Assembly: GCA_004431415.1 (NCBI GenBank)
Contig: QPMI01000192.1
Coordinates: 108,873 to 172,872 of the forward strand
Source: Cyanophora paradoxa CCMP329
Taxonomy: Eukaryota > Plantae > Glaucophyta
Reading direction: 5' to 3'
Length of the DNA: 64,000 bases
Positions 6,985 to 64,000 of the stretch are shown here, one piece after another (the stretch's first letter is position 1; the number at the start of each line of letters is the position of its first letter). Made by a program: the position numbers and the translations under genes. The notes under the pieces are model-generated. The model made no database searches. It was not told where the DNA came from and was given only the letters and a program-made list of their open reading frames with translations.

Positions 6985-7503
6985 GCTCGCATGCAGGTCA
7001 CCCCCACCAATTGCGCGCCCTCATCTTTCCTTCCCCACTACCATTCTCAGTAAGCCCATTATCCATTTTCAAATTTCTCAGTAAGGCTCAGTAACAAATT
7101 ATAAATTAGCACTGTATTTTTCAAACATCTAACCCTTCCTTACTGAAACCAATCGCGAAACCCTTTCATTCTTCATTTTTCTAATCTCTTACCATTCCCA
7201 GTAAGCCCTTAAACCCTCCCTCGATTTCTCAGTAAGGACAGTAAGACCCCTATTTTTACGAAATGTTCCCGATCGTTTCCAAACTGTTTTCAGTTAACAA
7301 ATTGAAAAATAAAGGTGACCCCCACCGATAGCCTTAATTCGGGTTAATAAAATACGAAATCAAGGTGAACCCCACCGATAGAGTATGATGAGTGCGCAAG
7401 TTTGTCCTGCCGAAAATGCCCACCTGCACAAACTTGCGCACTCCACAGACGATAGACCACGTTAAAATAAACTCGCGCCCCGCCCACTATGCAAGATACA
7501 TGC
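6985..7503 (+). repeat. Left TIR of element 1 (519 bp)
   Basis: Reverse complement of 31147-31663; the differences found are two single-base homopolymer indels near 7220 and 7250. Confidence 0.95.
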
Positions 7504-7789
7504 AAACAACATGCGAGTTCTATGAAAAATAAACAATTCAGTCATGTATATATTTCGTATATATGTCTGAACCTCCGTGTGTGTGATCCCGCACAGCTTT
7601 CACTTTTTGTTTTTTCTTTTTTCCCGCAAATTCCGACATATACATATATACAGACCGGCGTCACCGACACATATTCGGGGTCATCACATCGCGGCGATTC
7701 CGAAAACATATATAGGATGCCACAAAGTAGTATTTTTACTTTCCTGACCAATCAGAACCGATTGCAAGTGAAAATCCTCATTGATACTG

Positions 7790-7918
7790 TTTTGTGGACA
7801 CCGGGGATACCCATTTTGTGGACACCGGGGATACCCATTTTGTGGACACCGGGGATACCCATTTTGTGGTCATTTTGTGGACACCGGGGATACTCATTTT
7901 GTGGACACCGGGGATACC
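7790..7918 (+). repeat. Tandem repeat, 24-bp unit TTTTGTGGACACCGGGGATACCCA, about 5 copies plus an 11-bp partial
   Basis: Directly visible; no spacers between units. Confidence 0.95.
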
Positions 7919-8626
7919 GGAAAGGAGAAAACGCCATACAAACCGTTCAGCGCTTGTCTCTCTTCACCAGGTCATCACCTTGCAAAACTGAAAATAGCGC
8001 CGTGACCGTCTTGACGAGGCTAGCACGTCCATATAAGTGTCATAGGCTCAATAAATTATGTGTAAAAGCATTTTTTATGAAAAATGCGATCCTCACGGCG
8101 ACTTGGCAAGGGAACCGGCTACTAATAGACCTTAGTAAAGCGCCATTGTAGCTGAACCTTGTAGTAGGGCTGAACCTTATAGTAGGTCTGTTATACCTTG
8201 CAAATTCTCAGTTAGAAGCATAATATCCGCCGGCAAATATTTACCATAACATCGCGATCGCGAATTCGCGGAGACCCCCTTCCGTTTTCCGGGCATAACT
8301 TTGGACAGGAAGCCGATCTCGGCGCGTTCTTAAATGCTACGTGCTCACACCTTGATTCCGGGCATGATGGTTATGCTTTGACTAGCTAAGCCTACCGTGG
8401 AGCAAAGACCGACCTCGATTTCTGCACAAGTGCCCGAAAACGGAGGTGTCCGCTACATTCTGAGCGCCGGCGCGCGTTCCCGGAGGGCTCCACTAGTCAT
8501 ACTTTGCATCTGTATGCGTATAGAGTAGTTCTACACTACTACAAAGCGGCGCGGTCTGATTCGCAAAGGGCGCGATTTGGCGGCTACGAAACCACATAGC
8601 TCACAAAAATATCGACTTAAATAATA

Positions 8627-9019
8627 ATGGATTCCCGATACCGCGGCTACCACGTTATGCTCGACTATATAACCGACCCGTTTACTGAGTCCCCGGAGGC
8701 ATGCGCCGAGTGGATCACAGCGAACCTATCGCAATATATAACAGATCGCAAGATGCGCATCGTGCACCAGCACACATGCATTTTCGATGGCTCTATTTCC
8801 CCTCCCGGTTTCGCGATTGGCTTTCTATTAGATGAGTCGCATGCCACAGCTCACTCTTATAGCGACCAGGGGCTATTAGCGATCGATATCTTTACATGCG
8901 GCTCAAATGCCGAAGCGAAGACAATGGGTATAGCACAGGACATTAACGATCTCATACAGGAAAGGCTGAAAGTGCGAAAGTGGGACTTACAGGTCGAGCA
9001 AAGGTTCCCAATTTCATAA
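8627..9019 (+). CDS. speD: S-adenosylmethionine decarboxylase proenzyme (prokaryotic class 1B-like, pyruvoyl-dependent)
   Basis: 130 aa; self-cleavage motif LLDE|SHATAHSY and catalytic-Cys motif AIDIFTCG. Confidence 0.88.
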   Translation: MDSRYRGYHVMLDYITDPFTESPEACAEWITANLSQYITDRKMRIVHQHTCIFDGSISPPGFAIGFLLDESHATAHSYSDQGLLAIDIFTCGSNAEAKTMGIAQDINDLIQERLKVRKWDLQVEQRFPIS

Positions 9020-9044: not shown

Positions 9045-9359
9045 TTAATGCTCCTTGATCGGAAACTTGCCCATTAGCGGGTGATCGAGACCCATGACAT
9101 ACCAGGATTTCATAACGGGATCCCAGCGGGCTTTCTCAGCCTTCGCTTGATCCTTAAATTCATAAGGAATATCGAGGTAAACCTTCACGTTTCTTTGATA
9201 CACTTGCTCATAGCTTAGAGTTTTGAACTGAGAGCATAGGGGGTGATCTTTCTTTATGACATACCAGCATGAATTCTCACGATCCCACTTTCCACCGAGG
9301 GATTTCGCAACGTCTTTTTTATCAAACGGAATATCAACATAATACTTTTCACCCTCCAT
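9045..9359 (-). CDS. Tandem DUF5710-like domain protein
   Basis: Two repeats: YYVDIPFDKKDVAKSLGGKWD..WYV and YLDIPYEFKDQAKAEKARWD..WYV. Confidence 0.75.
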   Translation of the reverse strand: MEGEKYYVDIPFDKKDVAKSLGGKWDRENSCWYVIKKDHPLCSQFKTLSYEQVYQRNVKVYLDIPYEFKDQAKAEKARWDPVMKSWYVMGLDHPLMGKFPIKEH

Positions 9360-9398: not shown

Positions 9399-10781
9399 TT
9401 ATGAACGAGATGACCGAAGAATGCGCGTAGTAGGGGCTGTATAGCTTGCGCTCTGATTCTTGAATGATTTATACCACCGCTGACTGTTTACCTCTGAGAG
9501 CTTCTCAGTGCCGGCAATCGTTAATTTCGCGAGCTCTCTAAGCGCCCTCTTAGTCTTCTCCGCGCGATCTTCCAATAGAGCGCCTTTCGGAACACTTGCG
9601 GCGACATCTATGCCTTCTTTTTGAACCTGCCGAATAGAGGCTGCCTCTATCTCGGCTGCTTTAATTGCATTTTCTGCGGGCTCGACCACTGCCTCGACCT
9701 CTGTAATAATCTGCAATTCGTGCGGCTTAAATAGCTTCGGCATGAGGTATCCGGCTGCATCTTGCACCTCTATCGCGTTTCCTCTCCTTCCCGCAATTTT
9801 GTAGACCTCTCGGCTATACCTTTGTGTTGCTCCTTTATCAAACTTTGATCTTGGCAATAATACACGGACATGGAGACCCGGCTTAAAGTCGCTGAATATA
9901 TCCTTTACGATTGTGTTCTTCTTTGAAATAATAGCCGCTCGGATCCGCTCCATATCAGAAAGCTTAACATCTGCGGGTTTCATTCCTATGGTTCGGTGAA
10001 TCGTGTTGTTATAATTGAAAACGAAGTCGTCCAGCTTGTCCATAAATCGCACAGTGTTATAAGCGACACAGTAATTATTTATCATCGTTTTTAAGGTCAA
10101 ATGAAAGCGATTCATTATTCCCAGCGAAGTGTGATCTCCGACCTGTTTAAAGCGGTGTTCTATTCCGTTATTTTTAACGACCTCTTGGAACTCCTTCGCG
10201 ATGAATTCCGAACCGTTATCTGTCTCCAATCGAATCATCGGAGCCGGGAGCTCTGTAAGCATCTCCGCAAAAGCGGCGGCAACACTTGCGCCCTCCTTAT
10301 TCTTTAACTTCTTGGCATATGCTTTTCGACTTGTCATCTCGATGAGAGTAAGGACTGCAATGTAGCCGGAATTATAGCTGCCATATGAAAGATAAAAGAT
10401 GAGATCGGCTTGGTAGCACCACGGCGGGGCTGTGATGGGAATAAAAGCGGTTTGGGTCGGTGCGGGGGGCTTCTTGTTGATCTGCATAAATTCCTGTTTC
10501 GCTGCGACATCTTGCACTTCTTTCAATGTGAGGGTCTTGTCCTCTTTTCTCAGTTCTTCGTATATTGCGGATGGGTTCTTAAAACCTGTCTTCGGGTCAT
10601 ACATGCGGCGCACGATCTTAGAGGACGGGTTCGCAATGCTAAAAGGAACATCTCCTAATAAATTTGATTTTGCTTGGCGTTTTGTGATTTTTTGGGGGAC
10701 TTGTTCAGTCTCAGGAACCGCGATAGGTAGTATGGTGGTCTCTGTCTCCTCTCCCGCTACCCTTCTGACGATCCGTGACAT
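9399..10781 (-). CDS. Retroviral-like (rve) integrase, Polinton type, D-D35-N triad
   Basis: YQADL, LETDNGSEF, IMNRFHLTLK, YNNTIHRTIGMKP. Confidence 0.92.
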   Translation of the reverse strand: MSRIVRRVAGEETETTILPIAVPETEQVPQKITKRQAKSNLLGDVPFSIANPSSKIVRRMYDPKTGFKNPSAIYEELRKEDKTLTLKEVQDVAAKQEFMQINKKPPAPTQTAFIPITAPPWCYQADLIFYLSYGSYNSGYIAVLTLIEMTSRKAYAKKLKNKEGASVAAAFAEMLTELPAPMIRLETDNGSEFIAKEFQEVVKNNGIEHRFKQVGDHTSLGIMNRFHLTLKTMINNYCVAYNTVRFMDKLDDFVFNYNNTIHRTIGMKPADVKLSDMERIRAAIISKKNTIVKDIFSDFKPGLHVRVLLPRSKFDKGATQRYSREVYKIAGRRGNAIEVQDAAGYLMPKLFKPHELQIITEVEAVVEPAENAIKAAEIEAASIRQVQKEGIDVAASVPKGALLEDRAEKTKRALRELAKLTIAGTEKLSEVNSQRWYKSFKNQSASYTAPTTRILRSSRS

Positions 10782-10800: not shown

Positions 10801-12303
10801 TTATTTTTTGCTGCAATTGCACCCGTGATGCGCGAGTTGACAATTGTCTTTAAGATGTGGGCGCCTGTTGTTAATGCGATCCACGACGAGCCTGTAATTC
10901 GGATCTTGCGGCTCAATCGGAATAGGAAGGGAACAGAGCGCACAGGCGCCCTTCTGTTGCTTCTTGCGCTCTAATATCCACTCCGGCGTAATATAATCCG
11001 CCTCGTCGAAATCGCGCCCGGCACGCTGATCCTGGCATTTATAACCGCGGATCTTCGTTTTCAGATATTCGATGTAGTCGCTCTTTCCTTGGAACTTGTG
11101 AATCGGTGTATAAATCAGCACAGTGGACAGATCGCGGTTACGAGTTAGCGCGGTATAGAACCATTCGCGAGTGGTATAGCGGAACGTAGCCTCACAAATG
11201 ACAATGCCCGAATCAAGTGTGAGACCTTGCGTTGAATGACCTGTTCCTGCATAAGGGAGAGAAAAATGTTCTAACATCGCGCACGGAACCTCGAACGTGA
11301 CGCCATCGAAAACGTCAGTTAATGTGACCATTTGCTTGGTGATTTTGGTGATTCGATAGGTGTAATTCGTGTATGCATTAATAGACTCACCCTCAGACCG
11401 CGAAATGCGTAGATACCTGCGACAAACGACTTCCAGACCCTTGTAGAATTTGATGCCATTGACCTCTACGGTTGGGATATTTACTTTCCGTCTATCGTGC
11501 ATCAGTTTGTTATAGGCTAAGGTCATTTCGTTTCTGTAAGCGATGCCAAAGTAGCCGTCGGGGATAGCGCTTAGATCATTAATTGTCGGCAACCCGTATT
11601 TCGAGATAATCTGTGCGGCTTCGAGTCCGTTTTCGAAGAGATCCTCTTTGATCGCCCGAATTAATTCACGGTCTGTCTCCTTCTTGTGCCGCTTGTTAAT
11701 GCGTAGACTCAGGACGTTAGGGAACATGCTCTGCACAGCGCGCTTATAGTAGCCCTTGCGATCAGAAACCGAGAGCTCGTCATTAATCGGTTCGTTCTGA
11801 TAGGTATCGCCATTAGCCAAATATTTGATATCCGGGTAGCGATCGATAAACGACTTGATCTTAGCGAGATCTTTTACAGAATACGCGAATATCTCGTCGA
11901 ACATAATGTGGCTGAACTCGGAGACAAACGCCCTCTGGTCTTTTTCGCTCATAGCCTCTTCGTAGGTCTGATCATTTGAGACACGGATCCCGAGAACATT
12001 ATACAAAGTGCGAACGGTAATATTCTCGATTCCGCGGACTTTGAGAGAGTCCCTCAGCTCTGCGCACTGTTTGTTATAGGGGCAAATGACTAAGCAATTT
12101 GACTTTTGAGAGGCAAAGCAATTAATACCGAGGGTCGACTTTCCACTTCCGGGCATGTCAGCAAGGACAAGCATACGATTATGGAGCTCCGCAACCCAAT
12201 TAAAGCACTCCGGATTAAATTCGTCCCTCAGCGAGAACCGGTTAATGAGTGTCTCGGGATCCTGAAATTCGAGAGTTACACCCGTGGTGGGCGGAGTGCA
12301 TTC
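10801..12303 (-). CDS. SF1 (RecD/Pif1-like) helicase with C-terminal HNH/EndoVII-like domain; probably the C-terminal part of the PolB ORF
   Basis: DMPGSGKST, MFDEIF, GDTYQNEPI, TGHSTQGLT, YTALTR; C-terminal CALC..VDRINNRRPH..NC..HGCN. The frame is open upstream to 12303 and overlaps the end of the PolB ORF. Confidence 0.85.
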   Translation of the reverse strand, partial: ECTPPTTGVTLEFQDPETLINRFSLRDEFNPECFNWVAELHNRMLVLADMPGSGKSTLGINCFASQKSNCLVICPYNKQCAELRDSLKVRGIENITVRTLYNVLGIRVSNDQTYEEAMSEKDQRAFVSEFSHIMFDEIFAYSVKDLAKIKSFIDRYPDIKYLANGDTYQNEPINDELSVSDRKGYYKRAVQSMFPNVLSLRINKRHKKETDRELIRAIKEDLFENGLEAAQIISKYGLPTINDLSAIPDGYFGIAYRNEMTLAYNKLMHDRRKVNIPTVEVNGIKFYKGLEVVCRRYLRISRSEGESINAYTNYTYRITKITKQMVTLTDVFDGVTFEVPCAMLEHFSLPYAGTGHSTQGLTLDSGIVICEATFRYTTREWFYTALTRNRDLSTVLIYTPIHKFQGKSDYIEYLKTKIRGYKCQDQRAGRDFDEADYITPEWILERKKQQKGACALCSLPIPIEPQDPNYRLVVDRINNRRPHLKDNCQLAHHGCNCSKK

Positions 12304-15110
12304 TCAGGGCATCTTTTCCCGGGAATATAGCTGAATTTGCCCATGTTCTCAAACGCATTTCGGTCGAACTCTTTCTTACTTGTCCATGAACCTTCGATAT
12401 ATAGGCAATCCGTTCTGATCCCGGCAACCTTGTGCCCGCGCGCTGTCAGGCGCTTGTATTGCGCAAACATATTAGCACGGTTGCGATCGTAAATATGAAA
12501 GTGGATAGGAAGGAATCCGTTAACGAGCTCGCGGTGGGAGCTGATCTTAACGAAATAGATGTGACCTTCGAATTCGCTAAGAGTTTTGACACGTTTCGAA
12601 TTCTTAGGATTGAAAGTAAACACCTCTACTGTTCCTCCGCATTCTTGGGCGAACCTCTCAGCCTCGGCACGGTTGTAGAACATTTTCGTGGATGTTTGCG
12701 AGTCTTGGAATTTGCCGAGCATTCCGATCTCTTTCACTAAAATATGCTTCTTATCTGTGGTTTGAATGTCGCTTGACAGCACTTTTTGCATCTCAGCGAT
12801 CGACGTATTGGGCACCAAATGCGAAGGCTCCGCGACCGCGATAATCTCTATCTTGTCCTTTACGTCCGCCCAATGCATGGAGAGAGTGTAGCCTGTCATG
12901 AAATTATAACAGCGACCACTCACGGAAAATGCGCGATCCAGAATAATTTCGATTCCATCAATCTTGCGAGACATGGCGGCATCATAATCTACATCCTCAT
13001 CGTCGGCGAAAGTCGCTTGCTCTCTCTCAAACGCAACGACACGCACGTAGTAGATCGCGTATTCGAGAATATCGCTTCCCGCTTTAAAGGGAACGAAGTC
13101 ATCAAACACATTGTATTTCGGAAGATATTGCATGCCTTTCAGTATCGAAGGGTAGCACTTCGCCATATCGACAGCTGTGTAGGTGGCTTTCGGGTTCGGC
13201 TTATAGAAAAAGCCGCTTAGTGCGGATCGCTTGTAGTGCGTGAGAATTTCGCGCATGTTCGGGCTGTAATGTGAGATATTCGTCGCATTTAGAAGCGACT
13301 CCCGGAATCCCTTCCCGATTTCACAGACCTTATTATAATACTCCTCTGTTTCGAAATCTTGCTCAATAAAGTGGTCTGTTGTGCGTGGATCTTTGATAGA
13401 GAACATCGAGCCATTGGCTTTGAATGTGATGCTGTCGATCTGTTTCGATGGTGTTAGCTTCACAGCGGGCTCATATCGCATTTTCAGGAACGTAAATAGA
13501 AGACCTTCCAGACCTTCGCGCCCAGTATAAAGAATGCGGATGAAACTGCGCTCGTCGGGCGATAGTTTAAGTTGCGTGATCTTTACCAAATCCTTGGATG
13601 TGTGCGCGAAGATATCGTGAGTAAGACACGTCGGAATTTTATAGAGTGCTAACGAAGAGTTCGACTTAGGAACATGACTATCGAGCTCTTCGACCTCCAT
13701 CTTCGCCATGCGCATTTCGAGCGACTTGATGTTATCGTTGAATATATAGATGTGCTTGTTGTGAATCATAAAGTGAATATTGCGGGGAAAGATGTTTTTG
13801 TTAATTGATTCCGCCGCGAATTTGTGTATTAACTTTCCGTCGACATCAAAGACGCGGAAGCCTGTCTGAATTCTCTTACAGAATTTCTCGATATGGCGGA
13901 GGGTGAGAGCCAGAGAGTCGCCAGGTGTGCGTTCGCGACCGTGAAAGAATTTATAGAGACCGTCATACGACATAGTTAAGTCAGTATATCGCGGTTTTGG
14001 CGCCTCCTGACACTTCTTAATGGACGCTCCCCATGTGGATATGATCATATCGTAGCCGCAAGCGTTAGATGTCGATGATTTGGGAAGCTCAATAATATCT
14101 TCGAACTCAGACGCGTTTGGATTTAATGTGTAGTCTGTGAATTTGCTCATAATCGCGGTGCATCGCATACTGTCCATTAGCTCCTCATCCAGAAATGCAT
14201 AGCGATTTCCAGGTATAGCACCGGCTCCGTCATCTTCGACACCTTCGTCCCCATCGATCGCGACCTCATGAACAGTTATAAAGGCATCATCGACACTGCC
14301 GCCAAAATCATCGAAACCTTTGCGTAGTTTTTTCTGTTCCTCGGTTGGTGGTGTCTTAAAGAAGAACATCTCGTATGCTTGTCCGAAAGTTCCCAGACCA
14401 ATCTTCAATTCATCGTAGTTTTCGAGTAAATCGAAGATTGAATCTCTCTCTTCCGAATAATAACGATTTTGAGCGGTGAGAATTCCATACACTCTATCGA
14501 TTTTTGCCAGAGCAAAGTTTCGCAACACCCTCACCGAAACTGTCTCTCTTATATTCTGGTAGGTGACAAAGGTTCTGTCTTTTATATATGTTCCGGGAAT
14601 TCCGGGAATAACAATTACCTCCGACGACCGAGCACCGGATCCAGGTCCCCATAGCTTGAACGTAATTGTTGCGAGAGTTTCCGGATCGTATGCGGCGATT
14701 GGATCGAGAATAGTGCGTTTAATCGCATCCTCTACCGCTTTTAGTTTACCTCTCTGCTGCTTCGCTTCGAGTTTCGCTTCTTTCGCCCGTTTCTGTTCTC
14801 GTTTGCGATCGAAGCGCTGTAAACGCTTCGCCTCTTGTTCTTTTTGCTTTTGCTTTTCTATATTAACTTGGGTGCGAGCGGCGCGCTTCTCTTTCCGCTC
14901 TGCCCTGCGGAAAACGCGGGGATTAATGATTCCATTCAGAGTGTCCCGAATGTCGATCAGCGTTTGGAGCTTGGGCTTCCGATTCATTGTGTTGTGCATC
15001 GCCCAATGCGCCTGTTCTTCGGTTAGCAAATCCTGACTCAATCCCTGCATAATGTATCCGATAATTTCATCCCGAACATTGTTAGCGATTCTGTTGGTTG
15101 CGCGCGGCAT
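12276..15110 (-). CDS. Divergent family B DNA polymerase-like protein
   Basis: Motif A-like AVDMAKCYPSIL, motif B-like KHILVKEIGMLGK, motif C-like GIRTDCLYI, in the correct order. Confidence 0.7.
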   Translation of the reverse strand: MPRATNRIANNVRDEIIGYIMQGLSQDLLTEEQAHWAMHNTMNRKPKLQTLIDIRDTLNGIINPRVFRRAERKEKRAARTQVNIEKQKQKEQEAKRLQRFDRKREQKRAKEAKLEAKQQRGKLKAVEDAIKRTILDPIAAYDPETLATITFKLWGPGSGARSSEVIVIPGIPGTYIKDRTFVTYQNIRETVSVRVLRNFALAKIDRVYGILTAQNRYYSEERDSIFDLLENYDELKIGLGTFGQAYEMFFFKTPPTEEQKKLRKGFDDFGGSVDDAFITVHEVAIDGDEGVEDDGAGAIPGNRYAFLDEELMDSMRCTAIMSKFTDYTLNPNASEFEDIIELPKSSTSNACGYDMIISTWGASIKKCQEAPKPRYTDLTMSYDGLYKFFHGRERTPGDSLALTLRHIEKFCKRIQTGFRVFDVDGKLIHKFAAESINKNIFPRNIHFMIHNKHIYIFNDNIKSLEMRMAKMEVEELDSHVPKSNSSLALYKIPTCLTHDIFAHTSKDLVKITQLKLSPDERSFIRILYTGREGLEGLLFTFLKMRYEPAVKLTPSKQIDSITFKANGSMFSIKDPRTTDHFIEQDFETEEYYNKVCEIGKGFRESLLNATNISHYSPNMREILTHYKRSALSGFFYKPNPKATYTAVDMAKCYPSILKGMQYLPKYNVFDDFVPFKAGSDILEYAIYYVRVVAFEREQATFADDEDVDYDAAMSRKIDGIEIILDRAFSVSGRCYNFMTGYTLSMHWADVKDKIEIIAVAEPSHLVPNTSIAEMQKVLSSDIQTTDKKHILVKEIGMLGKFQDSQTSTKMFYNRAEAERFAQECGGTVEVFTFNPKNSKRVKTLSEFEGHIYFVKISSHRELVNGFLPIHFHIYDRNRANMFAQYKRLTARGHKVAGIRTDCLYIEGSWTSKKEFDRNAFENMGKFSYIPGKRCPENALRPPRV

Positions 15111-15279: not shown

Positions 15280-15693
15280 CTACGAAGTTTTTGCGTTCTC
15301 GACGACATGCTTTCGGGGTCTCCCAGCGGGCTTTTGCGGTTGGGGTTTAGCGGGCGGATTCAGCTTTCGTTCCGCTCTTTTCCTGCGTTGGTATTCCCTT
15401 GCCTTCTCTCGGATTTTCTCCCGATACTCTTCATCGTCTTGGTATCGCTGCTGTTTACGAATTGCGATCTTTTGTAGCTGTTCCGGTGTGAATATAGTAG
15501 CCTCTCCGGCGGCTAATCGCTCTTGCTTTTGTCTCTGATGCTTGTTTCGCTGCCGCTCGGCGTCTTTTTCGCGTTTCAGTCTTAATCTCTCCGCCTTCTC
15601 CTCTTCTGTGATCACCTTCTTCGGTCGCCCGGGTCTGCGCTTTTCCTGCTGTGCCGCCATTGCCTCTTGGTTTGAAATCTTGGGTTTCGCCAT
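15280..15693 (-). CDS. Basic AT-hook-like (GRP) coiled-coil DNA-binding protein
   Basis: RRPGRPKK and PAGRPRK; clear homologue at 54658-54984. Confidence 0.7.
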   Translation of the reverse strand: MAKPKISNQEAMAAQQEKRRPGRPKKVITEEEKAERLRLKREKDAERQRNKHQRQKQERLAAGEATIFTPEQLQKIAIRKQQRYQDDEEYREKIREKAREYQRRKRAERKLNPPAKPQPQKPAGRPRKHVVENAKTS

Positions 15694-15817: not shown

Positions 15818-16231
15818 TCAATAACCGTTCCAGACGGTTTGTTCTTGTTGCTGAGGATATACATAAGGGTTTGTTAAGCTGTCATCGTCGCCTAATGCCA
15901 TTTGATCCAATCTATACATCGGATAAGGGGAGTCAGCGCGAAAATGCCCTTCCACAAATTCAGGACATGAGCGCCTTCTAATATGCTCTACATGCACGTC
16001 CTCTATCTGAGCGGTTTCGATATTAGAACTCATAGCCGCGGGCACAGGCGAGGGCGATCGAGATCGTGGGTGGTTGTGATTGTCGCTGTGGTTAGAATAT
16101 ACAGAGAGGCGCCTACCTCCATGGTCTTCATCGGTAATATCAACCTCTACGGTTGTGTCGCAACATCCGGACTTACAGTGAGATATAAAATGTAGATGAA
16201 ACATTTCAATGCATTGTGTTATGAAATTCAT
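15818..16231 (-). CDS. Conserved small viral protein with N-terminal CxSGCC motif
   Basis: EMFHLHFISHCKSGCCDTTVE aligns with EMFSLHVVSNCHSGCCETTVE in element 2. Confidence 0.75.
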   Translation of the reverse strand: MNFITQCIEMFHLHFISHCKSGCCDTTVEVDITDEDHGGRRLSVYSNHSDNHNHPRSRSPSPVPAAMSSNIETAQIEDVHVEHIRRRSCPEFVEGHFRADSPYPMYRLDQMALGDDDSLTNPYVYPQQQEQTVWNGY

Positions 16232-28271: not shown

Positions 28272-28309
28272 CGATCCTAATTTTTGTAGTATGCCTTAAT
28301 AGAGAAATA

Positions 28310-51596: not shown

Positions 51597-51655
51597 TATT
51601 CCTAACTTGTTCCTATTCTAAGGGGATATTTTATTTTAGAGCATTTTAAACGCAA

Positions 51656-54440: not shown

Positions 54441-54657
54441 ATTCGATTTTGGGGACTTCTACCTTTAACGAAGAAAATAATTTCGGAAGGAGGAATTGTC
54501 TTTTATATATATCCTATTATTTGCCAAGTCCTTAAGTAGTTTTGGGTCGGGATACTGTCTCGATAAATAGATACAGTTTTAAAAAAGAGGGAAGAAAGCT
54601 GTCATTTTTTTGCCTCCGATCAAATCGATTTCTACAAAATTTGTTTCGATCGAGAAT

Positions 54658-54984: not shown

Positions 54985-55136
54985 TTCTCTTTAATAGTAG
55001 ATACGAAAATAATTTTTCCTCAATACAACCTATCTACTTTTTCCTTAAGTCATTTTTTGTTGCGAACACCAGTTCCTGTCTGTAAACTTTTATAGCTGCC
55101 TCAGTAGCATACTGAGACCGCTTTTTCTCAATTATC

Positions 55137-55382
55137 TTATAGACCTGGGGGTCCATTGCTACTTTCAGTTGGCAAATAATATTTAATCGGTCTTCCTCTG
55201 GGTCTCTGCTCCTCTTTTTGGGCTTTTCTGCGATAATAGGATGCCAGGGCTTGCTGCTTTTTATACTCTCTATATTCTGGGTCCTCTCTATATCGTTTCT
55301 GCATTGCTAGAATGTGTCTAATGGAACCCTCAGTAACAGGTTCATCACTGGTAAACTCGATTAAACTAATAGTATCCTCCAT
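55137..55382 (-). CDS. Second small AT-hook-like paralogue
   Basis: QKRYREDPEYREYKK..RPRGRP. Confidence 0.6.
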   Translation of the reverse strand: MEDTISLIEFTSDEPVTEGSIRHILAMQKRYREDPEYREYKKQQALASYYRRKAQKEEQRPRGRPIKYYLPTESSNGPPGL

Positions 55383-55647
55383 TTATATTCCCAGAGAAAA
55401 CGTTTTCTGCTGACAGAGAACTTCTCCTTGGATACTCCTGTTGCTCCTGTTGCTCATATGTATACTCTGTGGGGTCTGCTGGCATTGACTCCACAGAAAC
55501 TGTAGACCTCCTTCTCTCTCTTGCTTCTGAGGCATTATCCTCATTATCTGACATCTCAAACTCCACTGTTGTCTCACAACATCCACTGTGGCAATTGCTC
55601 ACCACATGCAGACTGAACATCTCGAAGAACTTTCGTATTATGTCCAT
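55366..55647 (-). CDS. CxSGCC protein, orthologue of 15818-16231
   Basis: MDIIRKFFEMFSLHVVSNCHSGCCETTVE; start chosen by homology. Confidence 0.72.
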   Translation of the reverse strand: MDIIRKFFEMFSLHVVSNCHSGCCETTVEFEMSDNEDNASEARERRRSTVSVESMPADPTEYTYEQQEQQEYPRRSSLSAENVFSGNINGGYY

Positions 55648-55669
55648 ATCTCTAATAAAACAGAGAAAA

Positions 55670-56404
55670 TTAAAGCCAAACTCGTCTTTTATATACTGTT
55701 GGGGCAACTCCCTTTTCTACTTCAGCTTTGGTGGCACCAGGTTCAATGGTTCCCTTTTGGGTTTTTGTTTTCATTTCATCTACTGCCTGCTCATCGATTT
55801 GGTTCTCTTTCTTAGCAATAAACTGTTTATCTGGGACACCAGTAATACCCATTTTATAAACTTCCTTTCGAAGCATCTCCTTTAGCTTGGCTCTCTCTTT
55901 CTTCTCAGTAACATACTGCTCCAAGGCACTTGATTTGGCTTCCAGATCTTTGAGTTTAGCAGTCATCTCATCCCATTGAGCCTTGGGAATTCGATGAACA
56001 TTCTGAGTGGGAGCAGTCTTGTATGTGACTTCACCAGCCATAGACTGAATTACCTTGTCTGATTCCTTACTAAGACCTTCACCTTTGCGAGTCAGTGAAA
56101 GATCTTGCAAGCCTAAACCTTTATCATCAGCAGCACCAATAATTCGCCTGGCACCCTCAGCAACAGACTTCATCTTTGAGGCTTCTGGTGAGATGTTGAG
56201 TTGGTCAGCAGTTGAACTTTGTGGGGCTTTGTCATCGACTGATTCCTCATAGGCAGCATTTAGGGGGTCTTCTTGGGGTTGTGAGGGTTTGATTTCGTTC
56301 ATACCATTGAATTTCATGGGTTCAGTGTTAATAGATCCATTGTTTCCACCACCTGAATAGCCAACAGCCCCAGCTGGGATCCCTATCTTTCGTTTGGGAG
56401 GCAT
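55670..56404 (-). CDS. Coiled-coil protein, orthologue of 17466-18149
   Basis: Shared coiled-coil block and synteny. Confidence 0.72.
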   Translation of the reverse strand: MPPKRKIGIPAGAVGYSGGGNNGSINTEPMKFNGMNEIKPSQPQEDPLNAAYEESVDDKAPQSSTADQLNISPEASKMKSVAEGARRIIGAADDKGLGLQDLSLTRKGEGLSKESDKVIQSMAGEVTYKTAPTQNVHRIPKAQWDEMTAKLKDLEAKSSALEQYVTEKKERAKLKEMLRKEVYKMGITGVPDKQFIAKKENQIDEQAVDEMKTKTQKGTIEPGATKAEVEKGVAPTVYKRRVWL

Positions 56405-56432: not shown

Positions 56433-57215
56433 TTATAAACCGCGTTTATATCGCATCAATTTATTGCTATGGACTTGGCTCTTCACTTCTTTGGGGGCTT
56501 CCTCTTTCTCTGGGGGTTTCAGCTCATCTTCTTTCTTTTTGGGCTTCCTGTGGAAGCGAGGGAATGGGAAATCTTTCACAAGGTCCGCTTTATCTACAAA
56601 GTATTTAACTGAGTAGCCAGCAGAGGACCAAACGATATACTGATAGGAGTGAACATACTCTTCAAACATCTTGTAGAAATCCTCTTTATTTCGCATTATA
56701 TTGTATTCTTCCTCTATGGCTTCAAGTTCTTTGCGATTAGCAGCACTCAGGAAAACAGCATAATCAGAATTAACTCGAATAGTGGAAGACACTTTTCTGA
56801 GTTTCTGTGTAATGCAGATAATGGATATTTTCGAATGGCGACCTCTGGAATACAAGGATCCGATTATTTTATCCCTTGTGAGATCGACTATCTCATTATC
56901 AATTAAATCATCTAAAACAACACACATGTGGTTGACAGGTTCACCTTTTTCGATTTTCTCCTGCCTTTCATCCAAAAGCTTTGAAATGTAACCAGCATCC
57001 CATTTACCAAGTTCTACTGTTGCAACCTCTCTCCAGAAACGATTAAAGCTGGTCCCACTCACAACTAGGACAACATCAATAACTTTGGCATCATGTAATT
57101 GCTTTAACCAATACTTTACACATTCGCTTTTTCCCGTACAACTTTTGCCTATAAAAATGGCTCTGAAAACACCTTTTATCATTTCAGAAACATTAAACTC
57201 TTCTAAATCTTGCAT
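56433..57215 (-). CDS. Packaging ATPase (A32-like)
   Basis: GKSCTGKS, VVLDD, RGRH, ITQ, IRVN. Confidence 0.92.
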   Translation of the reverse strand: MQDLEEFNVSEMIKGVFRAIFIGKSCTGKSECVKYWLKQLHDAKVIDVVLVVSGTSFNRFWREVATVELGKWDAGYISKLLDERQEKIEKGEPVNHMCVVLDDLIDNEIVDLTRDKIIGSLYSRGRHSKISIICITQKLRKVSSTIRVNSDYAVFLSAANRKELEAIEEEYNIMRNKEDFYKMFEEYVHSYQYIVWSSAGYSVKYFVDKADLVKDFPFPRFHRKPKKKEDELKPPEKEEAPKEVKSQVHSNKLMRYKRGL

Positions 57216-57274: not shown

Positions 57275-58636
57275 CTATAAATTGATTCTACGAACCCCTG
57301 AACCGTCTATAATGAGGAAACTATGCATTAAAGCGCGAACTTGAACATTGATTGTCTTATCTGTGGGCATGTAGAGTGTGAGGAATGAAGATGAGGAATT
57401 TGTCAGGTCAACAAATCCACTTTGAGCAATATTTCGAATCGCCTTCTCTCCATCAATGCAGAAACTTAAACCTGAAAGGACATATTTATCTGCAACCTTG
57501 TCCATGTTAGAGCATTTGAAGGCATCAGCAATTAGCTCAGCACCTTTGAGTAGGGAAATTGGTCAGTGGCATAAAGTCGCTGTCCATTAATTTCAACAGT
57601 GAATGTGATGTCTTTGGAGTTGGCATAGGTCTTAAGAACACTGTGGGAGCCATTGGATTTGTCAACAGTTTCATAATCACGAACTGAAACAAGCAGAGCA
57701 TAGACAAGACCTGAGATTTGAGAGAGGTTAATTCGATTGGGCTGGGCATTGCCCTTGGCAGGGAAAGCAATGGCATCTACAAATCCAATATCAAGGAGGG
57801 AATAGCCATGCCAGTAGTCTTTACTTTTTCAATTACAGTAGCGAAAAGCTCATCAGAAACATTAATAGCATGCATGTAAAGGCGAGGAGAAGTAATTGAA
57901 ATAGCAGGGGTTGTTGCACCAAGACTGAAAGTGGTGATGTTTTGACCAACATGGGCAAGTGTAGCATTAGCAGTATCACCAAGACCATCATCTTCTGTCT
58001 TATCAGCAGCTGTCCCACCAACAACAGGGAGAGAGCGACCACCATAGGAGTTTCAACATAACCCTTTCCAGCATCCTTAAACCAAACAGTAACAACCATT
58101 TCACCAGATAAAGCACCAAGGGGAAGATAGTGATTTAGCCAAGGCACTGGGATTTCAACGAAAAATGAGCCACCAAGTCGGTTGGTTCCATGAGCAGGGA
58201 TACCATGAACCATGCCATTGAGCGTTTCTTTTTAGCTAGTTGATCTCCGAATAATAGACCAGGGGGAATGAGCAAGGAAATCAGAAGGGATGTGGTAGGT
58301 GTAAGATCCATAGGTAATTTCAAGTCGCTGAACTAAAGCACCAACTGGGCGAGTGTATCCATTGCGAACTAGATCTTCACCAGCAAAAGTGATTTCTGGT
58401 AGATCGAAAGCAAGTTCGAGTTTTCCACAGAAATTGTAGCGAGGTAGCTTGAAGGAAATGCGATTTCCTACATTATTCTCAAAAGTATTGCTGGGATTCA
58501 CAACAACTAGAACTGGCTTAGACTTGGATTCGAGACCAAGCATAAGGGAGTTATCCAGGAAAAAGGCTTTCGCCTCCTCTGGGGTTGTTAGGGCTTCTTT
58601 CAGCGAAAGTCTTTGAAGAGTGGAAGTGATATCCAT
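57275..58636 (-). pseudogene. Major capsid protein, frameshifted in this assembly
   Basis: GNRISFKLPRY and VRALMHSFLIIDGSGVRRI match the element 1 capsid termini; several frame breaks. Confidence 0.75.
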
Positions 58637-58689: not shown

Positions 58690-59698
58690 TTATGCGAAGC
58701 TTGTAATTACTGGATAGGAAGGGTGAAGCTGTGACATTCGCATCTTAAAGTATTCATAAACTGGGTCTCCTGCTGGCTCATCACCATAGCGAATTTCAAA
58801 GGTCAGATGAACAGGTTGACCCTCAAAATCAATTGGTTCATTAATAGCATTTACAATATCAACCGAGAAAGTGGATAATCCAACCTTCTTATTATAGTAT
58901 TTGTAAAGTGGATGAGCCTCTGTCGAATTGTAAACTACATGCTCACCATAATCTTTGTCAGGGACCACTATTTTATGGAAGTAACCAGTCAGAAGACCAT
59001 CCCCACATTGCACCAGATCACCCAGCTCCTTTACTCTCACAAACAAAACACTGTCCCTGGTCTTCTCAGGCTCAAAAGAAGATATAATGCCATTCACTCG
59101 ACCACCAGTAAAGATTCCATCAGTGAGAGCATCATAGACCTGTGATTGGATTGGGGAGTTACCATATCTTCCAGGATCAAGACCCAGCAGTCTAGCTGAA
59201 CTCAACAGCTTTTGGATTGTTTGTTGGCTTGGGTTCACAGCTACTGAGAAAGCCAAGTAAAATGGTACTGCTGAGTGGAATATAATTCGTTTCAGTGATT
59301 CATCCCATTTGCAGCGAATGGATGGTTGGGGATTTCTGCCTTCGAATTTAGAGTTAATTACATTCACCAGTTGTTGGTGGCTTTGGATGGGGTGTTTCGA
59401 CTTATAATGAATTGTTTCCATTGTTCATAGTCAGCAGCTGGGCGAACTGTTGGAATTCCTGAGCTTCCAGCTCCAGGAGTTTGTTCAGAATAATAAATGC
59501 TAAATGCATTGTCAACTGTCACATCTCCAACTTTGGTTTCACCACTCACCATAGGGATGCTGTTATAAAATTCGGCTGATACCAGTCTCACAGCCCTCAC
59601 ATTCTCATAAGAACTTGGGAGTCTAGCCACAAAGCTTGATGTGGACCATCACCAGAGATTGTATTAAATGAGCTAACCTCGATGTAATCCACAGGCAT
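58690..59698 (-). pseudogene. Minor capsid protein 1, frameshifted
   Basis: LPSSYENVRAVRLVSAE and IDFEGQPVHLTFEI. Confidence 0.72.
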
Positions 59699-59727
59699 TC
59701 TTCTTTTATCTATATTTATATATTAAA

Positions 59728-60657
59728 ATGAATCGACTTGTTAATATTGATAGCAGGGATAGAAGCCAAGGACAAAATGAAAACTCTTACAGGGTCACTC
59801 TCACAACTCCAGTAGAGAGACCAAGGGAATGTAGGGTTCTCTATGCAGAGATTCCAAACAGTATCTATAACAGTGTGGGAACTGATCATCTAACAGTTCA
59901 GTTTAATTACAAGATGGTTCATACAATGAAATCATCACACAGAAAGTGTATCCCCTTCCCAGTGGCTACATTAACCAGGGTCATTTTGGGGTAACACACC
60001 CTTATAATTATGGGCTGAACTATTCAAGCTTCCAAACCATTGCAGGCAAAACAGTAGCTTTTGAGTTCAAGATATTCTATAACCCAACTACCTATAAAGT
60101 GGAGTTTTACAGTAACCATGAGTTTCGTTTTATTGCAAGCAACAGAGAATAGGGAAGCTTTTGGGTGTGAGTTCTACTGAATACACCAATGGTTATTATA
60201 GCACTCCTCCTGCTGGTGGATCTCCCTATCGACCTGAGAACCTTTTAAAGTATGATGGCAAACCTATTACACCTGATCACCCAGCATGGGGAATCACCTT
60301 CTCAGGACCCAGACTCTCCTCAAAGCCCTTGCAATATTATTTTGACAGCAGGAAGATGTCTGATATGAATGCTGAGCAGTATCTGTACATGCATATTAAA
60401 GAGCTGTCCCCCTTTGCCAGCAGACACAATATAATCCCGAAATCGCAACCACATAACCAGGGGGCAATCCTTAGACTGCAATTGAGTAAAGATATAGGCG
60501 GCTATGTTTACCATAGTGGTGAGCATGCCGAATTCATTCAGATAAATGACAGAAACCTGGTGATAAGGGAACTCACTGTGAGTTTAAAGATTACTTTGGT
60601 GAACTGATTGATATGAATGGAATCGACAATTCTTTTCAGTTGGAGTTTATCGAATAA
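59728..60657 (+). pseudogene. Minor capsid protein 2, frameshifted
   Basis: VNIDSRDR..VLYAEIPNS; ends DMNGIDNSFQLEFIE. Confidence 0.72.
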
Positions 60658-62185
60658 AGGCACCTGTAAAGTCCACTCTCATTGTGGGAGCATTCACATA
60701 CACAAGGGATAAATGCGAATATACTTGATTCTGAGAGAAAAACCTATGTAAAAGCATCCTTGATGCTGAGAGGAAATCCACTCAATAAAGCAACATCACC
60801 TGAGTTGTGAGCATTGTTAATGTTCTCACAGACATATATTTTGTTCTGCCCATCTGATCGAATAAAAGACCAGTTGATCCCATCAGTGGATGTTGCCACA
60901 TTGAAAGTCTTAATAAAAGCATTGGTGTCCCTGAACCATAGGCAATAACAGAGGAGAGTTCGAAAGTATATGGGAAAGCAACTTGAAGGTATTCAGTGGG
61001 GGTTTCCCATATCTGCTCAGGAGCATAGGCTCCAGCTTCCCAGCCAAATGCTGAAGGTCTAGCCATGAAAGGCTCTTTACCTGTCACAGAGGATGAGGCA
61101 GTGAAGGCATCATCTGCAAGCTGATACCAATTTGCATCCAAAGGAGGTGATGTAGTGAGAGTGGATGATATGTAAGCCTTTGAAGGGTTCTTTAATTCAT
61201 AGTTTGCTACTAGAATGCTGCAAAGCTTATTAATCATATCATTGTTTGCTGCAATGTATGTTCAGTGAATGCAAGCATGTCTGGGATTTTAGAAGTGTCA
61301 TCCAGGGAGCTTACTATATGATTTGGAAGTGGGACTGATAGCCTATAGTATCTCCCATAATCCTGATCATAGTTGTAGGGTAACAACTCCTCCATCTTAT
61401 CAAGGGCAGAAAGCTCACTTGCAGCCATGAGCATGTTAATCAATGGCTTCCATCTGTTGAGGCAATCCATGAGAGAATGCCCCAGCTGTTGACAGTCTCA
61501 TAAGCATAACCCACATAATCAGACTCTAAATGTGGGTCCACCTCTCCACAAGATATACTTATTACTATAAATCATCATCATCACTGTAAATTTCTTTGCA
61601 TGGCTGTAACCACACACACTGGGATTATTGTTTCCCGAAATGGCACCATCAATTAGACAGACATATACTCCCCGATTGAAATCAACAATGCTTACAGGAG
61701 AGAAATATGTAGGAGCAGCAGAAGTAGCCCTAGCAGCAATCTTACAAGGCATAAAGTTGTAATTGTTGTATTTGTGATAAAATTGGTTTCATATCTGAGT
61801 ATCAAAGATGTGATCACAATGTCCTTTAGGGAATCCTGTATTAGTGATCACCAGTAACTGAATTGATTGCAGTCTCCAAGGTCCCACATCATACTTTGTA
61901 TTAAAAGGGCATTTTCGATTATATTTCGAGGATTTGCGAAAATCAAGGGCAGTTGAGTTAGGTAAATATTGTGTAAATCGTTTGCTGTCAGTTTAGGTTC
62001 ACCTGGTTTATCAGGATGCCTTATATTCAAACCTATTGCAATGATCCCACCAGTGGAAGTTCCACTCACAAGATCACAAGATCGATTATTCTCCTGCAGT
62101 TCGATTTCGATTTCTTTTAGCAGCCTGGTTATGATAATGCCCCTTGCACCTCCCCTGATAAAGACAGGCAGATTTTCAAGGGCAT
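60647..62185 (-). pseudogene. Patatin-discoidin lipase, frameshifted
   Basis: GTSTGG, RATSAAPTYF, LIDGAISGNN, EYLQVAFP, ends RVDFTGAFIR. Confidence 0.8.
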
Positions 62186-62228
62186 CTTTTTACTTATCAG
62201 GAATTTTATAAATCCATATAGTAAAGCC

Positions 62229-64000
62229 ATGAGCTTAATTACCCACAAAATCTAGAACCATTCAAGATGATATGCAAGCAGCACCAAGCATGTGAACTTT
62301 GATAATATTAAAGTAAAGGGTTCAGTTTCGATTGACCACAGTTCCGATAATTCATCCAAGACTCAATCAAGGAGCATGCTTTATCTGTGAATCAAACCGA
62401 TCCAGATAAGGGGAAGTTAGTGTTGTTTACTTGGGTAATGTGAAAGCAAACCAAGTGCAGAGATCAAGCAACAAGAAGGGACCTAGGAACTCAACCAGTG
62501 GCACTCACCCAGATATACCTTCTAGGTTTGATAGTGGTCGATTGTTTCAATGTTCAAGATGAGCAGGGCAAACAGAACACAGGTTTGCGAATTTACAATG
62601 AGGGCAGCACTGCAAAAGCTGAGGTCCCCCAAGTATTGCAAGTGGTCCCATTGCCACACAAATCAGGTCTCCTACACAAATGATGTCTACCCAAGGATAT
62701 TACATATGACTTTGCAAGGAATGAGCCTTTTGGGTTCTTTACTCCAAAAGATGTCCATCAAAAAAGCCATCAATTACCAATCAACAGTAGCCCCAGTCAA
62801 CCAGTAGCAATCCATTTACATCTGATCTTGTTGAAATGGATAGGCACCTTTTGCCTTTGTATAGCAATGTGAAAGACCTTGGAATTCGAACCAGGCAATG
62901 GCGAAATATCCATGGCAGCAATGTGTATGCAAATGGTGAGAAGCTTGTAAGTGAGAAGACCATAAGAGAGATCTTGAGTATTATGGACCTGTCCCAGTTC
63001 CCTTCCTCTTCCATGGGATCCACCGGATTTAACACCGAAAAAGCAACCAGGCAGAGAGTACACAGCAACTGAGATGTAGCTTTGGGCAGCATATGTGAGT
63101 TGGGAGCAAGTTCGCAATAAACCTATAATTGAACCCAAAAGCAAATAGATGAGCAGTATTTACCTCCGAAGTCGACATATTAGAGCTTGATGAATATCAA
63201 TTCGTTCCAGATGAGGAAGAGTATTTACCAGATGGTTTTGACCCACAAGAATATGAATATGATCAGTTTGACCCAATGAGGAGGAGATACTACCAGATGG
63301 CTTAGATCCACAAGAGTTTGAGTATGAGCAGAACTATGAACCTGATGAGGAGTATTTGCCAGATGGGCATGATCCACCAGCTGTTGATTATGAGCAACCT
63401 TATGAACCCCATGAGGAATATTACCAGATGGATTTCGACCTGAGATCTGGGAGTTCTTTCCTGATTATGACAAATTAAAATAAACCTGCAAAGTATCCCC
63501 AGAGGATCACAATCATGACTGGGATGAGATCTTAGGCAAACCAAAAATCCACCAGAGGATCACAGGCATGATTGGGGTGATTGATGGGATTCCAGATAAT
63601 TTGCACAAGCAACCATGAACACACTTGGGATGAGATCAATGACCAACCAGAATTCAAAGTGGAGCCTCTTGATAACTTGGGGTTTCTCTTTACCAGACTT
63701 GTAATGTCCCTGAAAGGATCTTTTTGAATGAACACTATGTACATGTGAATGGGACACTTGCAAATTCAGCTATGAGAGGACCACTTCATATTAGGACATT
63801 ACCAGGCTCTTATAATCCACCACCTGAACCAGGAGCAACCATACCAAATATCTTTGTGTCAAGCTACATGGAGGCTGACATTCCCACAGATACATTCAGA
63901 GTCCCAACAGACCCAGCAACCTACCAAAATTACAACTCTGCTATACAGGTTCATGTAGCAGATGTAAGCAGTTTAGATGGCTCAAGACCAATGATAGTTT
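62229..64000 (+). pseudogene. Large fibre/spike gene, heavily frameshifted, truncated by the window edge
   Basis: FNVQDEQGKQNTGLRIYN..KAEV matches FFIQDESGFQNAAMRIVDN..KVEV of 24551-27145; LLP..KDLG..QWRNIH motif; syntenic. Confidence 0.65.

What the first reader, a model, noticed from the sequence alone, without database searches (positions are those of the whole stretch)
6985..64000. One PLV lineage with two interchangeable replication systems
Seen: two elements 13.6 kb apart share the integrase (near-identical C-terminus), three small accessory genes, ATPase, capsid, twin pentons, patatin-discoidin and fibre in the same order and orientation, plus a promoter motif. The slot next to the integrase holds PolB-SF1 helicase-HNH in element 1 but pPolB plus AEP-SF3 primase-helicase in element 2, and the termini are unrelated. 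Known: PLVs are mosaic. Inference: a possibly undescribed clade caught after a clean swap of replication module and cognate origin.
Basis: partly seen in the sequence, partly recalled or inferred. Interest (0 to 1): 0.85.

Follow-up and report, generated by a model that had tools for sequence, protein, structure and literature searches.

The report
Two old sister viruses, different replicases
Two virus genomes inserted 13.6 kb apart in an alga's chromosome keep the same gene order but only about one third of their protein sequence, and they carry different DNA-copying enzymes, likely because one enzyme was replaced long ago, a kind of swapping already reported in these viruses and in this alga's virus catalogue.

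Summary
Observation largely confirmed; interpretation overstated. E1 (6985-31663; 6-bp target duplication, ~520-bp inverted ends) and E2 (45243 to beyond 64000; 75-nt hairpin end) are polinton-like viruses of Cyanophora paradoxa. They share gene order and a 17-bp upstream motif. Shared proteins are only 21-50% identical (capsid 32-35, ATPase 36, integrase 37). The near-identical integrase tail is synonymously saturated, so these are deep sister lineages, not a recent clean swap. E1 encodes the known Tlr1-type pPolB-SF1-HNH fusion. E2 encodes an exonuclease-decayed pPolB plus an AEP-SF3 primase-helicase, with an origin-like repeat array duplicated on both sides of integrase-pPolB. Integrases group together while polymerases do not, so an old replacement is likely. 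Both capsid types are in Bellas 2023 Table S2, and mixed replicases of glaucophyte PLVs are counted in Bulzu 2025 Table S6. Replicase swapping, dual replicases, bracketing repeats and hairpin ends are all published. This scan noted the same theme on another contig (e1-10595630). Remaining value: an unnamed capsid clade, a possible replacement intermediate, and a D-D-N integrase.

The parts
6979..6984 (+). E1 left target-site duplication (6 bp; repeated at 31664-31669)
6985..7503 (+). E1 left terminal inverted repeat (~520 bp); no hairpin at the tip
   Evidence: z -0.33
8627..9019 (+). E1 S-adenosylmethionine decarboxylase (not found in the part of E2 in the window)
   Evidence: PF02675 E 1.8e-11
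9045..9359 (-). E1 DUF5710 protein, with the 17-bp motif upstream (9375-9391)
9399..10781 (-). E1 rve integrase, D126-D188-N224; conserved C-terminal tail at 9471-9539
10801..15110 (-). E1 Tlr1-type pPolB-SF1 helicase-HNH replicase; split by one frameshift near 12280 in the window, while the only contig over that site in each of two DNA runs differs from the window by one base there
   Evidence: architecture as in PMC5499653
15135..15151 (-). 17-bp upstream motif in front of the E1 replicase
15280..15693 (-). E1 small basic AT-hook-like protein (homolog of 54658-54984)
15818..16231 (-). E1 small accessory protein (N-terminus homologous to 55366-55647)
16263..17198 (-). E1 zinc-finger protein with a likely endonuclease C-terminus; single-copy insertion
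   Evidence: depth 0.8-0.9x host
17466..18149 (-). E1 conserved protein of unknown function (homolog of 55670-56404)
18152..19018 (-). E1 A32 packaging ATPase
   Evidence: PF04665 E 1.7e-10
19069..19785 (-). E1 HNH-AP2 endonuclease, in about a quarter of family copies
19858..21171 (-). [quoted passage not shown]
   Evidence: PBCV-1 Z 30.1, rmsd 2.8, 339 aligned
21219..22145 (-). E1 penton-like protein 1 (likely)
   Evidence: weak DUF5901
22162..23007 (+). E1 penton-like protein 2 (likely), divergently oriented paralog
   Evidence: E 1e-7 to penton 1
23014..24507 (-). E1 patatin phospholipase with C-terminal discoidin-like domain
   Evidence: PF01734 E 4.3e-22
24551..31097 (+). E1 fibre-like gene cluster (H-lectin-like, repeat-rich and C1q proteins, small ORFs)
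31147..31663 (-). E1 right terminal inverted repeat
45243..45317 (.). E2 left end: 75-nt imperfect hairpin beginning at the host junction
   Evidence: z -14.5
45575..46030 (.). E2 terminal repeat array, 10 copies of AGTC[A/C]AC in 481 bp including a dyad (likely origin)
46965..48350 (-). E2 rve integrase, D-D-E intact; conserved tail at 47046-47114
48354..51596 (-). E2 protein-primed PolB, in pieces in the window: palm motifs A/B/C intact, exonuclease motifs decayed with a ~100-aa deletion
51650..51836 (.). E2 internal direct copy of the terminal dyad array, between pPolB and the primase-helicase
51847..54440 (-). E2 AEP-PriCT2-SF3 primase-helicase (one frameshift in the window)
54469..54485 (-). 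17-bp upstream motif in front of the E2 primase-helicase
54658..56404 (-). E2 accessory genes: two basic-protein paralogs, small accessory protein, conserved unknown protein
56433..57215 (-). E2 A32 packaging ATPase
   Evidence: PF04665 E 1e-11
57278..58636 (-). E2 major capsid gene, in frameshifted pieces in the window
   Evidence: close relative
58690..60654 (.). E2 two penton-like genes, divergent, frameshifted
60697..62189 (-). E2 patatin with discoidin-like domain, frameshifted
62250..64000 (+). E2 probable fibre gene, frameshifted and cut by the window end
   Evidence: marginal

Best explanation
E1 and E2 are inserted, multi-copy polinton-like viruses of Cyanophora paradoxa from two deeply split branches of one capsid clade, and their different DNA-copying enzymes likely result from at least one old replacement in the slot between the integrase and the accessory genes. 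Shown: boundaries, synteny, 32-37% identity of core proteins, integrase and ATPase clades, different replicases, shared upstream motif, E2 hairpin and duplicated repeat array. Inferred for E1: a single pPolB-SF1-HNH protein would prime from a terminal protein at its plain inverted ends, with the fused helicase unwinding. Inferred for E2 (about 0.45 within this reading): an AEP-SF3 primase-helicase likely arrived with its own repeat origin and took the promoter slot; it would open and prime at the AGTC[A/C]AC dyad, the exonuclease-decayed pPolB would extend, and the hairpin end would fold back to finish the strand. Both would be packaged by the A32 ATPase into the double jelly-roll capsid and reinserted by the rve integrase. 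Direction and date of the replacement are not resolved.
For: Synteny and identities. Synonymous saturation in the integrase tail, 15 of 21 codons. Integrase tree E1+E2+P0003 99/98 (10 rows) and ATPase tree E1+E2+P0002 100/100 (7 rows). E2 pPolB pieces are 24-39% identical to pPolBs of 4 of 4 IMG/VR loci (L001-L004), where pPolB also sits directly before rve. A profile of E2 plus those four did not match the E1 polymerase (E 0.63). E1 architecture (motif C lacking the first Asp, SF1, C-terminal HNH) equals the Tlr1-like helicase of PMC5499653, predicted active in PMC11071308. E2 Exo I/II/III are decayed while all 4 relatives keep them, matching the published link of exonuclease loss with helicase gain. 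The dyad array is duplicated around integrase-pPolB, like the Gezel-14T direct repeat and Barth 2026 Fig 6. The 17-bp motif lies directly upstream of the first replicase gene in both elements. Depth relative to the single-copy flank: E1 integrase, replicase junction, ATPase and capsid 24-42x; E2 primase-helicase 24-35x in single contigs, terminal array 27-51x, capsid 71-74x, pPolB 101-122x.
Against: Trees rest on 7-10 rows with long branches, and no polymerase tree that includes E1 could be built because the sequences do not align. The capsid tree (8 rows) left the fork joining the E1 and E2 pairs open. No full-length relative outside this genome was found, so the ancestral state is unknown. 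Binding of the primase-helicase to the array, and hairpin priming, are untested. The tool warns that summed contig depth is not copy number: capsid and pPolB figures are sums of 2-3 contigs, except one single contig at 71x, and GC differs between element and flank. E2's ATPase depth (36-42x) is lower than its capsid depth, so the steps may partly reflect divergence below the 85% cut-off. Lower depth cannot tell an absent gene from a divergent allele.
Confidence: 0.8

Rival explanations
1. One reading: one recent lineage caught just after a clean exchange of replication module and origin.
For: Same gene order; integrase and basic-protein genes flank different replicases; shared upstream motif; unrelated termini.
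Against: Capsid 32-35%, ATPase 36%, integrase 37% identity; synonymous saturation in the conserved tail; each capsid has a ~60% relative other than the partner element. E1's modules have near-even depth, giving no sign of a second replicase under the E1 capsid.
Confidence: 0.03
2. No replacement: one ancestral pPolB diverged vertically, gaining a fused SF1-HNH in E1 and a neighbouring AEP-SF3 in E2.
For: Both enzymes are pPolB derivatives with vOTU-like Cys/His motifs (motif reading), both lie before the integrase on the same strand, and both lack a working exonuclease.
Against: E2 pPolB aligns end to end with environmental pPolBs whose integrases fall outside the E1+E2 clade, and shows no detectable match to E1's. 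The E1 fusion belongs to a widespread published clade.
Confidence: 0.08
3. E2 is a nested or chimeric insert, or an assembly join, of two multi-copy families: a pPolB-integrase unit and an AEP-SF3 virus.
For: Depth steps near 51470 and 55400; repeats bracket integrase-pPolB as for transpoviron-like units; many one-base errors in this part of the assembly; no listed contig spans the junctions.
Against: The E2 integrase groups with E1's and carries the same N- and C-terminal extensions, so it is native to this clade. All 30 bins are covered in three DNA runs, and no joint bypassing the pPolB/AEP boundary is among the 15 of 18 joints shown.
Confidence: 0.09

Closest known systems
Endogenous PLVs of Cyanophora paradoxa catalogued in Bellas et al. 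2023 (PMC10120064, Tables S1, S2, S4) and Bulzu et al. 2025 (PMC12220804, Table S6)
   Same: Table S2 holds sequences matching the E1 capsid nearly letter for letter and an E2-type capsid, confirmed by HHpred (92-98%). Table S4 lists 366 capsid hits in two unnamed clusters (272 and 94). Table S6 counts, among 156 glaucophyte elements, PF03175 pPolB 49, PF08706 40, SF1 34, rve 85, lipase 89, AdoMet decarboxylase 66, protease 0, tyrosine recombinase 0; patatin-discoidin fusions are in the main text.
   Different: The passages and rows seen give no per-element link of replicase to capsid type or terminus, no name for the clade and no end structures.
Tlr1-like helicase / pPolB-S1H of PLVs, Tlr1 and transpovirons (PMC5499653; PMC11071308)
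   Same: E1 replicase: palm motifs A and C (first Asp missing), no exonuclease, SF1 helicase, C-terminal HNH; rve beside it as in Tlr1.
   Different: Different capsid clade and host; the E1 integrase has Asn at the third catalytic position.
Polisuvirus replicase mosaicism (Barth, Ha, Aylward 2026, 10.64898/2026.10.13.758929; Bellas and Sommaruga 2026, 10.64898/2026.06.19.733378) and the end-module replacement model (Barth 2024, PMC11296320)
   Same: One capsid type with several replicases; elements with two replicases; repeats bracketing a replication module; a helicase invading a pPolB end.
   Different: Published cases include much closer pairs (70-78% nucleotide identity, or identical capsid genes). 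The 2024 model also replaces rve by a tyrosine recombinase, whereas here rve is kept.
Halocafeteria seosinensis endogenous virophages and PLVs (10.64898/2026.07.28.741278)
   Same: [quoted passage not shown]
   Different: There the dual replicases are in virophages and palindromes go mostly with non-pPolB replicases; E2 has both a hairpin and a pPolB.
Mavirus (pPolB without most of the exonuclease, separate SF3 helicase, rve)
   Same: Exonuclease loss paired with a separately encoded SF3 helicase.
   Different: E2's helicase carries an AEP primase; the capsid is not virophage-like (Z 14 against 30 for PBCV-1).

Membership tests
Polinton-like viruses (informal group) | [quoted passage not shown] | tested here: met
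   Model pLDDT 73.6, pTM 0.80; PBCV-1 Z 30.1, rmsd 2.8, 339 aligned; Foldseek E 2e-19 to iridovirus MCP
Polinton-like viruses (informal group) | A32-like packaging ATPase | tested here: met
   PF04665 in both elements
Polinton-like viruses (informal group) | [quoted passage not shown] | tested here: inconclusive
   Weak DUF5901, paralogous pair beside MCP; not folded
Polinton-like viruses (informal group) | 15-45 kb genome with terminal inverted repeats and target duplication | tested here: met
   E1 24.7 kb, ~520-bp repeats, 6-bp duplication; E2 right end lies outside the window
Maverick-Polintons (Polintoviricetes, classical) | pPolB plus rve integrase | tested here: met
   E2 has both; E1 has rve and the pPolB-S1H derivative
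Maverick-Polintons (Polintoviricetes, classical) | Adenovirus-type maturation protease | tested here: inconclusive
   No protease family hit among the 20 E1 ORFs scanned with Pfam (the 87-aa ORF only with PHROGs); 0 of 156 glaucophyte elements in Bulzu Table S6; a very divergent protease is not excluded
Gosseviruses (GKS1) | GKS1-type capsid | tested here: not met
   Bellas Table S4 puts the Cyanophora capsid counts outside the Gossevirus columns. The E1/E2 capsid profile matched no ORF of L001-L004; their GKS1 label is my recollection of the motif, not a call result
Tlr1-like pPolB-S1H replicase | Palm motifs with first Asp of motif C replaced, no exonuclease, SF1 helicase, C-terminal HNH | tested here: met
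   Motifs located; SF1 and HNH by PHROGs; fused frame supported. The palm assignment is by motif reading; no profile hit
Tlr1-like pPolB-S1H replicase | Terminal-protein and vOTU folds, polymerase activity | not tested
Nucleocytoviricota-related PLVs (Zora, Zephyr, VC218, Alpensee) / Mriyaviricetes | Capsid assigned by the 2026 profile set; Mriya48, HUH or VLTF genes | not testable with these tools
   Profiles are in a closed bioRxiv supplement. Fold and Atlas neighbours of the capsid are mostly Nucleocytoviricota, but no PLV capsid appears among the listed rows for comparison; no HUH or VLTF hit

The most novel reading that the evidence does not exclude
A glaucophyte-centred, unnamed capsid clade with giant-virus-like capsids has a fixed promoter-plus-slot cassette into which whole replicons plug together with their own origin and end type. 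E2's family is an ongoing takeover: an AEP-SF3 primase-helicase with its dyad origin and hairpin end has invaded about a third of a larger pPolB-integrase family, so protein-primed and hairpin-primed versions of one virus coexist in one culturable alga. The D-D-N integrase family may be mobilised in trans.
Probability: 0.3. Interest if true: 0.55.

Novelty: new member of a known kind. Interest (0 to 1): 0.3.

Why it matters
Replicase turnover under a stable capsid is already the accepted picture for these viruses, so this pair adds an example rather than a principle. The value is practical. Cyanophora is culturable and holds tens of copies of each family, so the published but untested idea that replicase, origin and end structure travel together could be tested by sorting copies. 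The capsid clade has almost no relatives in public protein collections (6 hits among 1.84 billion representatives) and has no name in the papers read.

Tried and rejected
No whole genome was held, so copies could not be tabulated. The single-sequence capsid fold failed (pLDDT 32); the 7-row alignment worked. Searches for full-length relatives found nothing for ATPase, capsid, E1 integrase, primase-helicase, E1 polymerase, P0007 and P0008/P0014 in viral contigs and for ATPase and capsid in metagenome contigs; only E2 pPolB gave loci (4). These scans need exact short patterns and do not show absence. A PDB sequence search with the capsid profile gave only chance chaperonin hits. Rfam gave 0 matches. 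The Atlas answered 1 of 6 tries (recognition 1773, below its 2300 mark, so weak). No RNA holder was listed. Earlier-findings searches by sequence and by words were blank. Rejected: recent gene conversion of the integrase tail (synonymous saturation). Rejected: a real split of the E1 polymerase and helicase in the family. Rejected as the main reading: that E2 is a decayed relic. All 12 indels shown (of 137) are bases the window lacks relative to short-read contigs, which fits long-read error, although private decay of this copy is not excluded. Literature searches run. None of the papers listed named this clade in the passages read; subscription papers and bioRxiv supplements were not visible.

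Full report
Layout. The window holds two low-GC islands in a 56-58% GC, intron-rich host. E1 runs 6985-31663. It is flanked by a 6-bp target duplication and has ~520-bp terminal inverted repeats that differ by two one-base gaps. E2 begins at 45243 and runs off the window. Its left junction is confirmed by a single-copy host contig with no differences in three DNA runs and by loose ends at 45243/45244 in a fourth run. The gap between the elements is 13,579 bp. Earlier scan notes named the host as Cyanophora paradoxa. I checked this: a published table lists C. paradoxa capsid genes matching E1's nearly letter for letter, and a capsid relative is labelled with this species by its source.

What is shared. 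Nine of 20 E1 genes match E2 by tblastn, in the same order and orientation; five E1 genes lie to the right of the point where E2 is cut. Identities are low: integrase 36.6%, ATPase 36.6%, capsid 35% local and 32% global, pentons 21-30% over their longer matched stretches, patatin 39-49%, and DNA aligns only in short bits. The near-identical integrase tail is 21 of 23 residues, but 15 of the 21 use different codons. That indicates long purifying selection, not recent transfer. The fibre match is marginal. A 17-bp motif occurs three times, all on the minus strand in front of genes: E1 DUF5710, the E1 replicase and the E2 primase-helicase. Looser copies precede the basic-protein gene in both elements and the E1 capsid. 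The patterns were drawn from these sites, so the shuffle controls are generous; the promoter role is inferred from position.

Capsid and clade. The E1 capsid folds as a double jelly roll, closest to PBCV-1 (Z 30.1, rmsd 2.8, 339 aligned), faustovirus and iridovirus capsids, and further from virophage capsids (Z 14). Relatives are scarce: one hit each for capsid and ATPase among the candidates scored, and 6 hits for a capsid profile among 1.84 billion representatives. E1 pairs with an unnamed protein at 61%, and E2 pairs with another Cyanophora capsid at 59%; the capsid tree left the fork joining these pairs open. Integrase and ATPase trees join E1 and E2 at 99/98 and 100/100 against the few outgroups, with long branches. 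They are therefore deep sisters in one clade.

E1 replicase. The two ORFs 12276-15110 and 10801-12174 are one frame apart. The only contig over that site in each of two DNA runs (28x and 42x host depth) differs from the window by one base there, so the family encodes one fused protein. Its motifs (A, B-like, C lacking the first Asp, SF1, C-terminal HNH) match the Tlr1-like helicase described in PMC5499653 (parts 1-3 of 5 read). PMC11071308 reinterprets that protein as an active protein-primed pPolB-S1H (passages read). E1's integrase, ATPase, capsid and penton run at 24-32x host depth, and two endonuclease genes are optional (about 1x and 7-8x). Nothing suggests a second replicase under this capsid.

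E2 replicase and ends. The E2 pPolB aligns end to end with pPolBs of four IMG/VR PLV loci in which pPolB also precedes rve. Palm motifs are intact. Exonuclease motifs I-III are decayed and about 100 residues are missing, while all four relatives keep them. A profile of these five did not detect the E1 polymerase. Upstream lies an AEP-PriCT2-SF3 primase-helicase. The left end is a 75-nt hairpin (z -14.5), whereas E1's tip does not fold. Ten copies of a short motif lie in 481 bp near the end and five in the 250 bp between pPolB and the primase-helicase, against 3 in all of E1. The two arrays keep the same dyad, order and spacing as direct repeats. Depth relative to the flank is 24-35x for the primase-helicase (single contigs), 27-51x for the terminal array, 36-42x for the ATPase, 71-74x for the capsid and 101-122x for pPolB. 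The tool warns that summed depth is not copy number, and low depth may mean a divergent allele, so this is a hint only. It suggests that this primase-helicase and this terminus go together in a subset of a larger family. E2's many frameshifts look like assembly error: all 12 indels shown of 137 are bases the window lacks relative to short-read contigs.

Mechanism. Shown: same chassis, different replicases, and incongruent integrase and polymerase affinities. Inferred: at least one old replacement in the slot between the integrase and the basic-protein gene, with the upstream motif kept. E1 would replicate by protein priming with a fused helicase. E2 likely gained a primase-helicase with its own origin; it would prime at the dyad, extend with the proofreading-less pPolB and use the hairpin to complete the end. 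Direction and timing are unknown.

Comparison with print. Barth, Ha and Aylward 2026 (parts 1-4 of 5 read) report replicase and capsid reassortment as common, elements with two replicases, repeats bracketing replication modules, and pairs far closer than this one. They also use an element from the QPMI01 assembly, which Bellas Table S1 assigns to C. paradoxa. Bellas and Sommaruga 2026 (parts 1-4 of 5; supplements not visible) state that switches among pPolB, AEP-SF3 and polB-SF1 occur in all groups analysed. The Halocafeteria preprint (passages) has pPolB plus D5 primase-helicase and terminal palindromes. Barth 2024 (passages and part of section 9) gives the end-module replacement model and the Gezel-14T direct repeat. 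Bellas 2023 (passages and supplement rows) lists both capsid types and 366 hits in two unnamed clusters. Bulzu 2025 (passages, section 8, supplement rows) counts all three replicase classes among 156 glaucophyte elements. Four searches gave no paper naming this clade in what I read; unseen supplements may do so. This scan already recorded sibling viruses with a near-identical capsid and different replicases on another contig; sequence look-ups did not link that note to these elements.

Verdict. Real, well-preserved elements showing a known phenomenon in a catalogued but unnamed clade. New member of a known kind, interest 0.3. The open points are per-copy linkage of primase-helicase, origin and hairpin, and the Asn at E1's third catalytic integrase position.

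Noticed in passing
window 10110-10112 (E1 integrase residue 224): The third catalytic residue is Asn (two base changes from a Glu codon) where E2 and three database relatives have Glu, yet E1 has an intact target duplication and about 25-30 copies; whether it is family-wide is unknown.
   Followed up: partly
window 9471-9539 and 47046-47114: A 23-residue C-terminal integrase motif is strongly conserved across lineages that are 37% identical and is also in P0003; function unknown, possibly a binding site for a capsid or host partner.
   Followed up: partly
window 16263-17198 and 19069-19785: Two endonuclease genes are optional in the E1 family (about 1x and 7-8x host depth against about 28x), consistent with homing endonucleases spreading among copies.
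   Followed up: partly
window 46390-60477 and 46544-48535 (run X16): Contigs join across 14.1-kb and 2.0-kb deletions, suggesting internally deleted non-autonomous derivatives of the E2 family.
   Followed up: no
window 6996-7438 (runs X15, X17): In two runs guessed to be RNA, contigs over the E1 terminal repeat are far deeper (205-381) than those over the genes (2-5); this could be a terminal transcript or a separate short repeat family.
   Followed up: no
window 8627-9019: E1 carries an S-adenosylmethionine decarboxylase gene; Bulzu Table S6 counts this domain 66 times among 156 glaucophyte elements.
   Followed up: partly
window 7788-7918 and 45297-45544: Short tandem arrays near the left ends (24-bp units in E1, 55-bp AT-rich units in E2), unrelated to each other.
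   Followed up: no
window 37055-45230: A long multi-exon host gene on the + strand with no Pfam hit in the ORF pieces scanned; E2 appears inserted just after a GT splice donor of this gene.
   Followed up: no
window 33400-33600, 33856-34337 and 35308-35765: Small host inverted repeats and ~160-bp tandem units, probably short non-autonomous transposons.
   Followed up: no
window 54658-55382: E2 has a second paralog of the small basic-protein gene that E1 has once.
   Followed up: no
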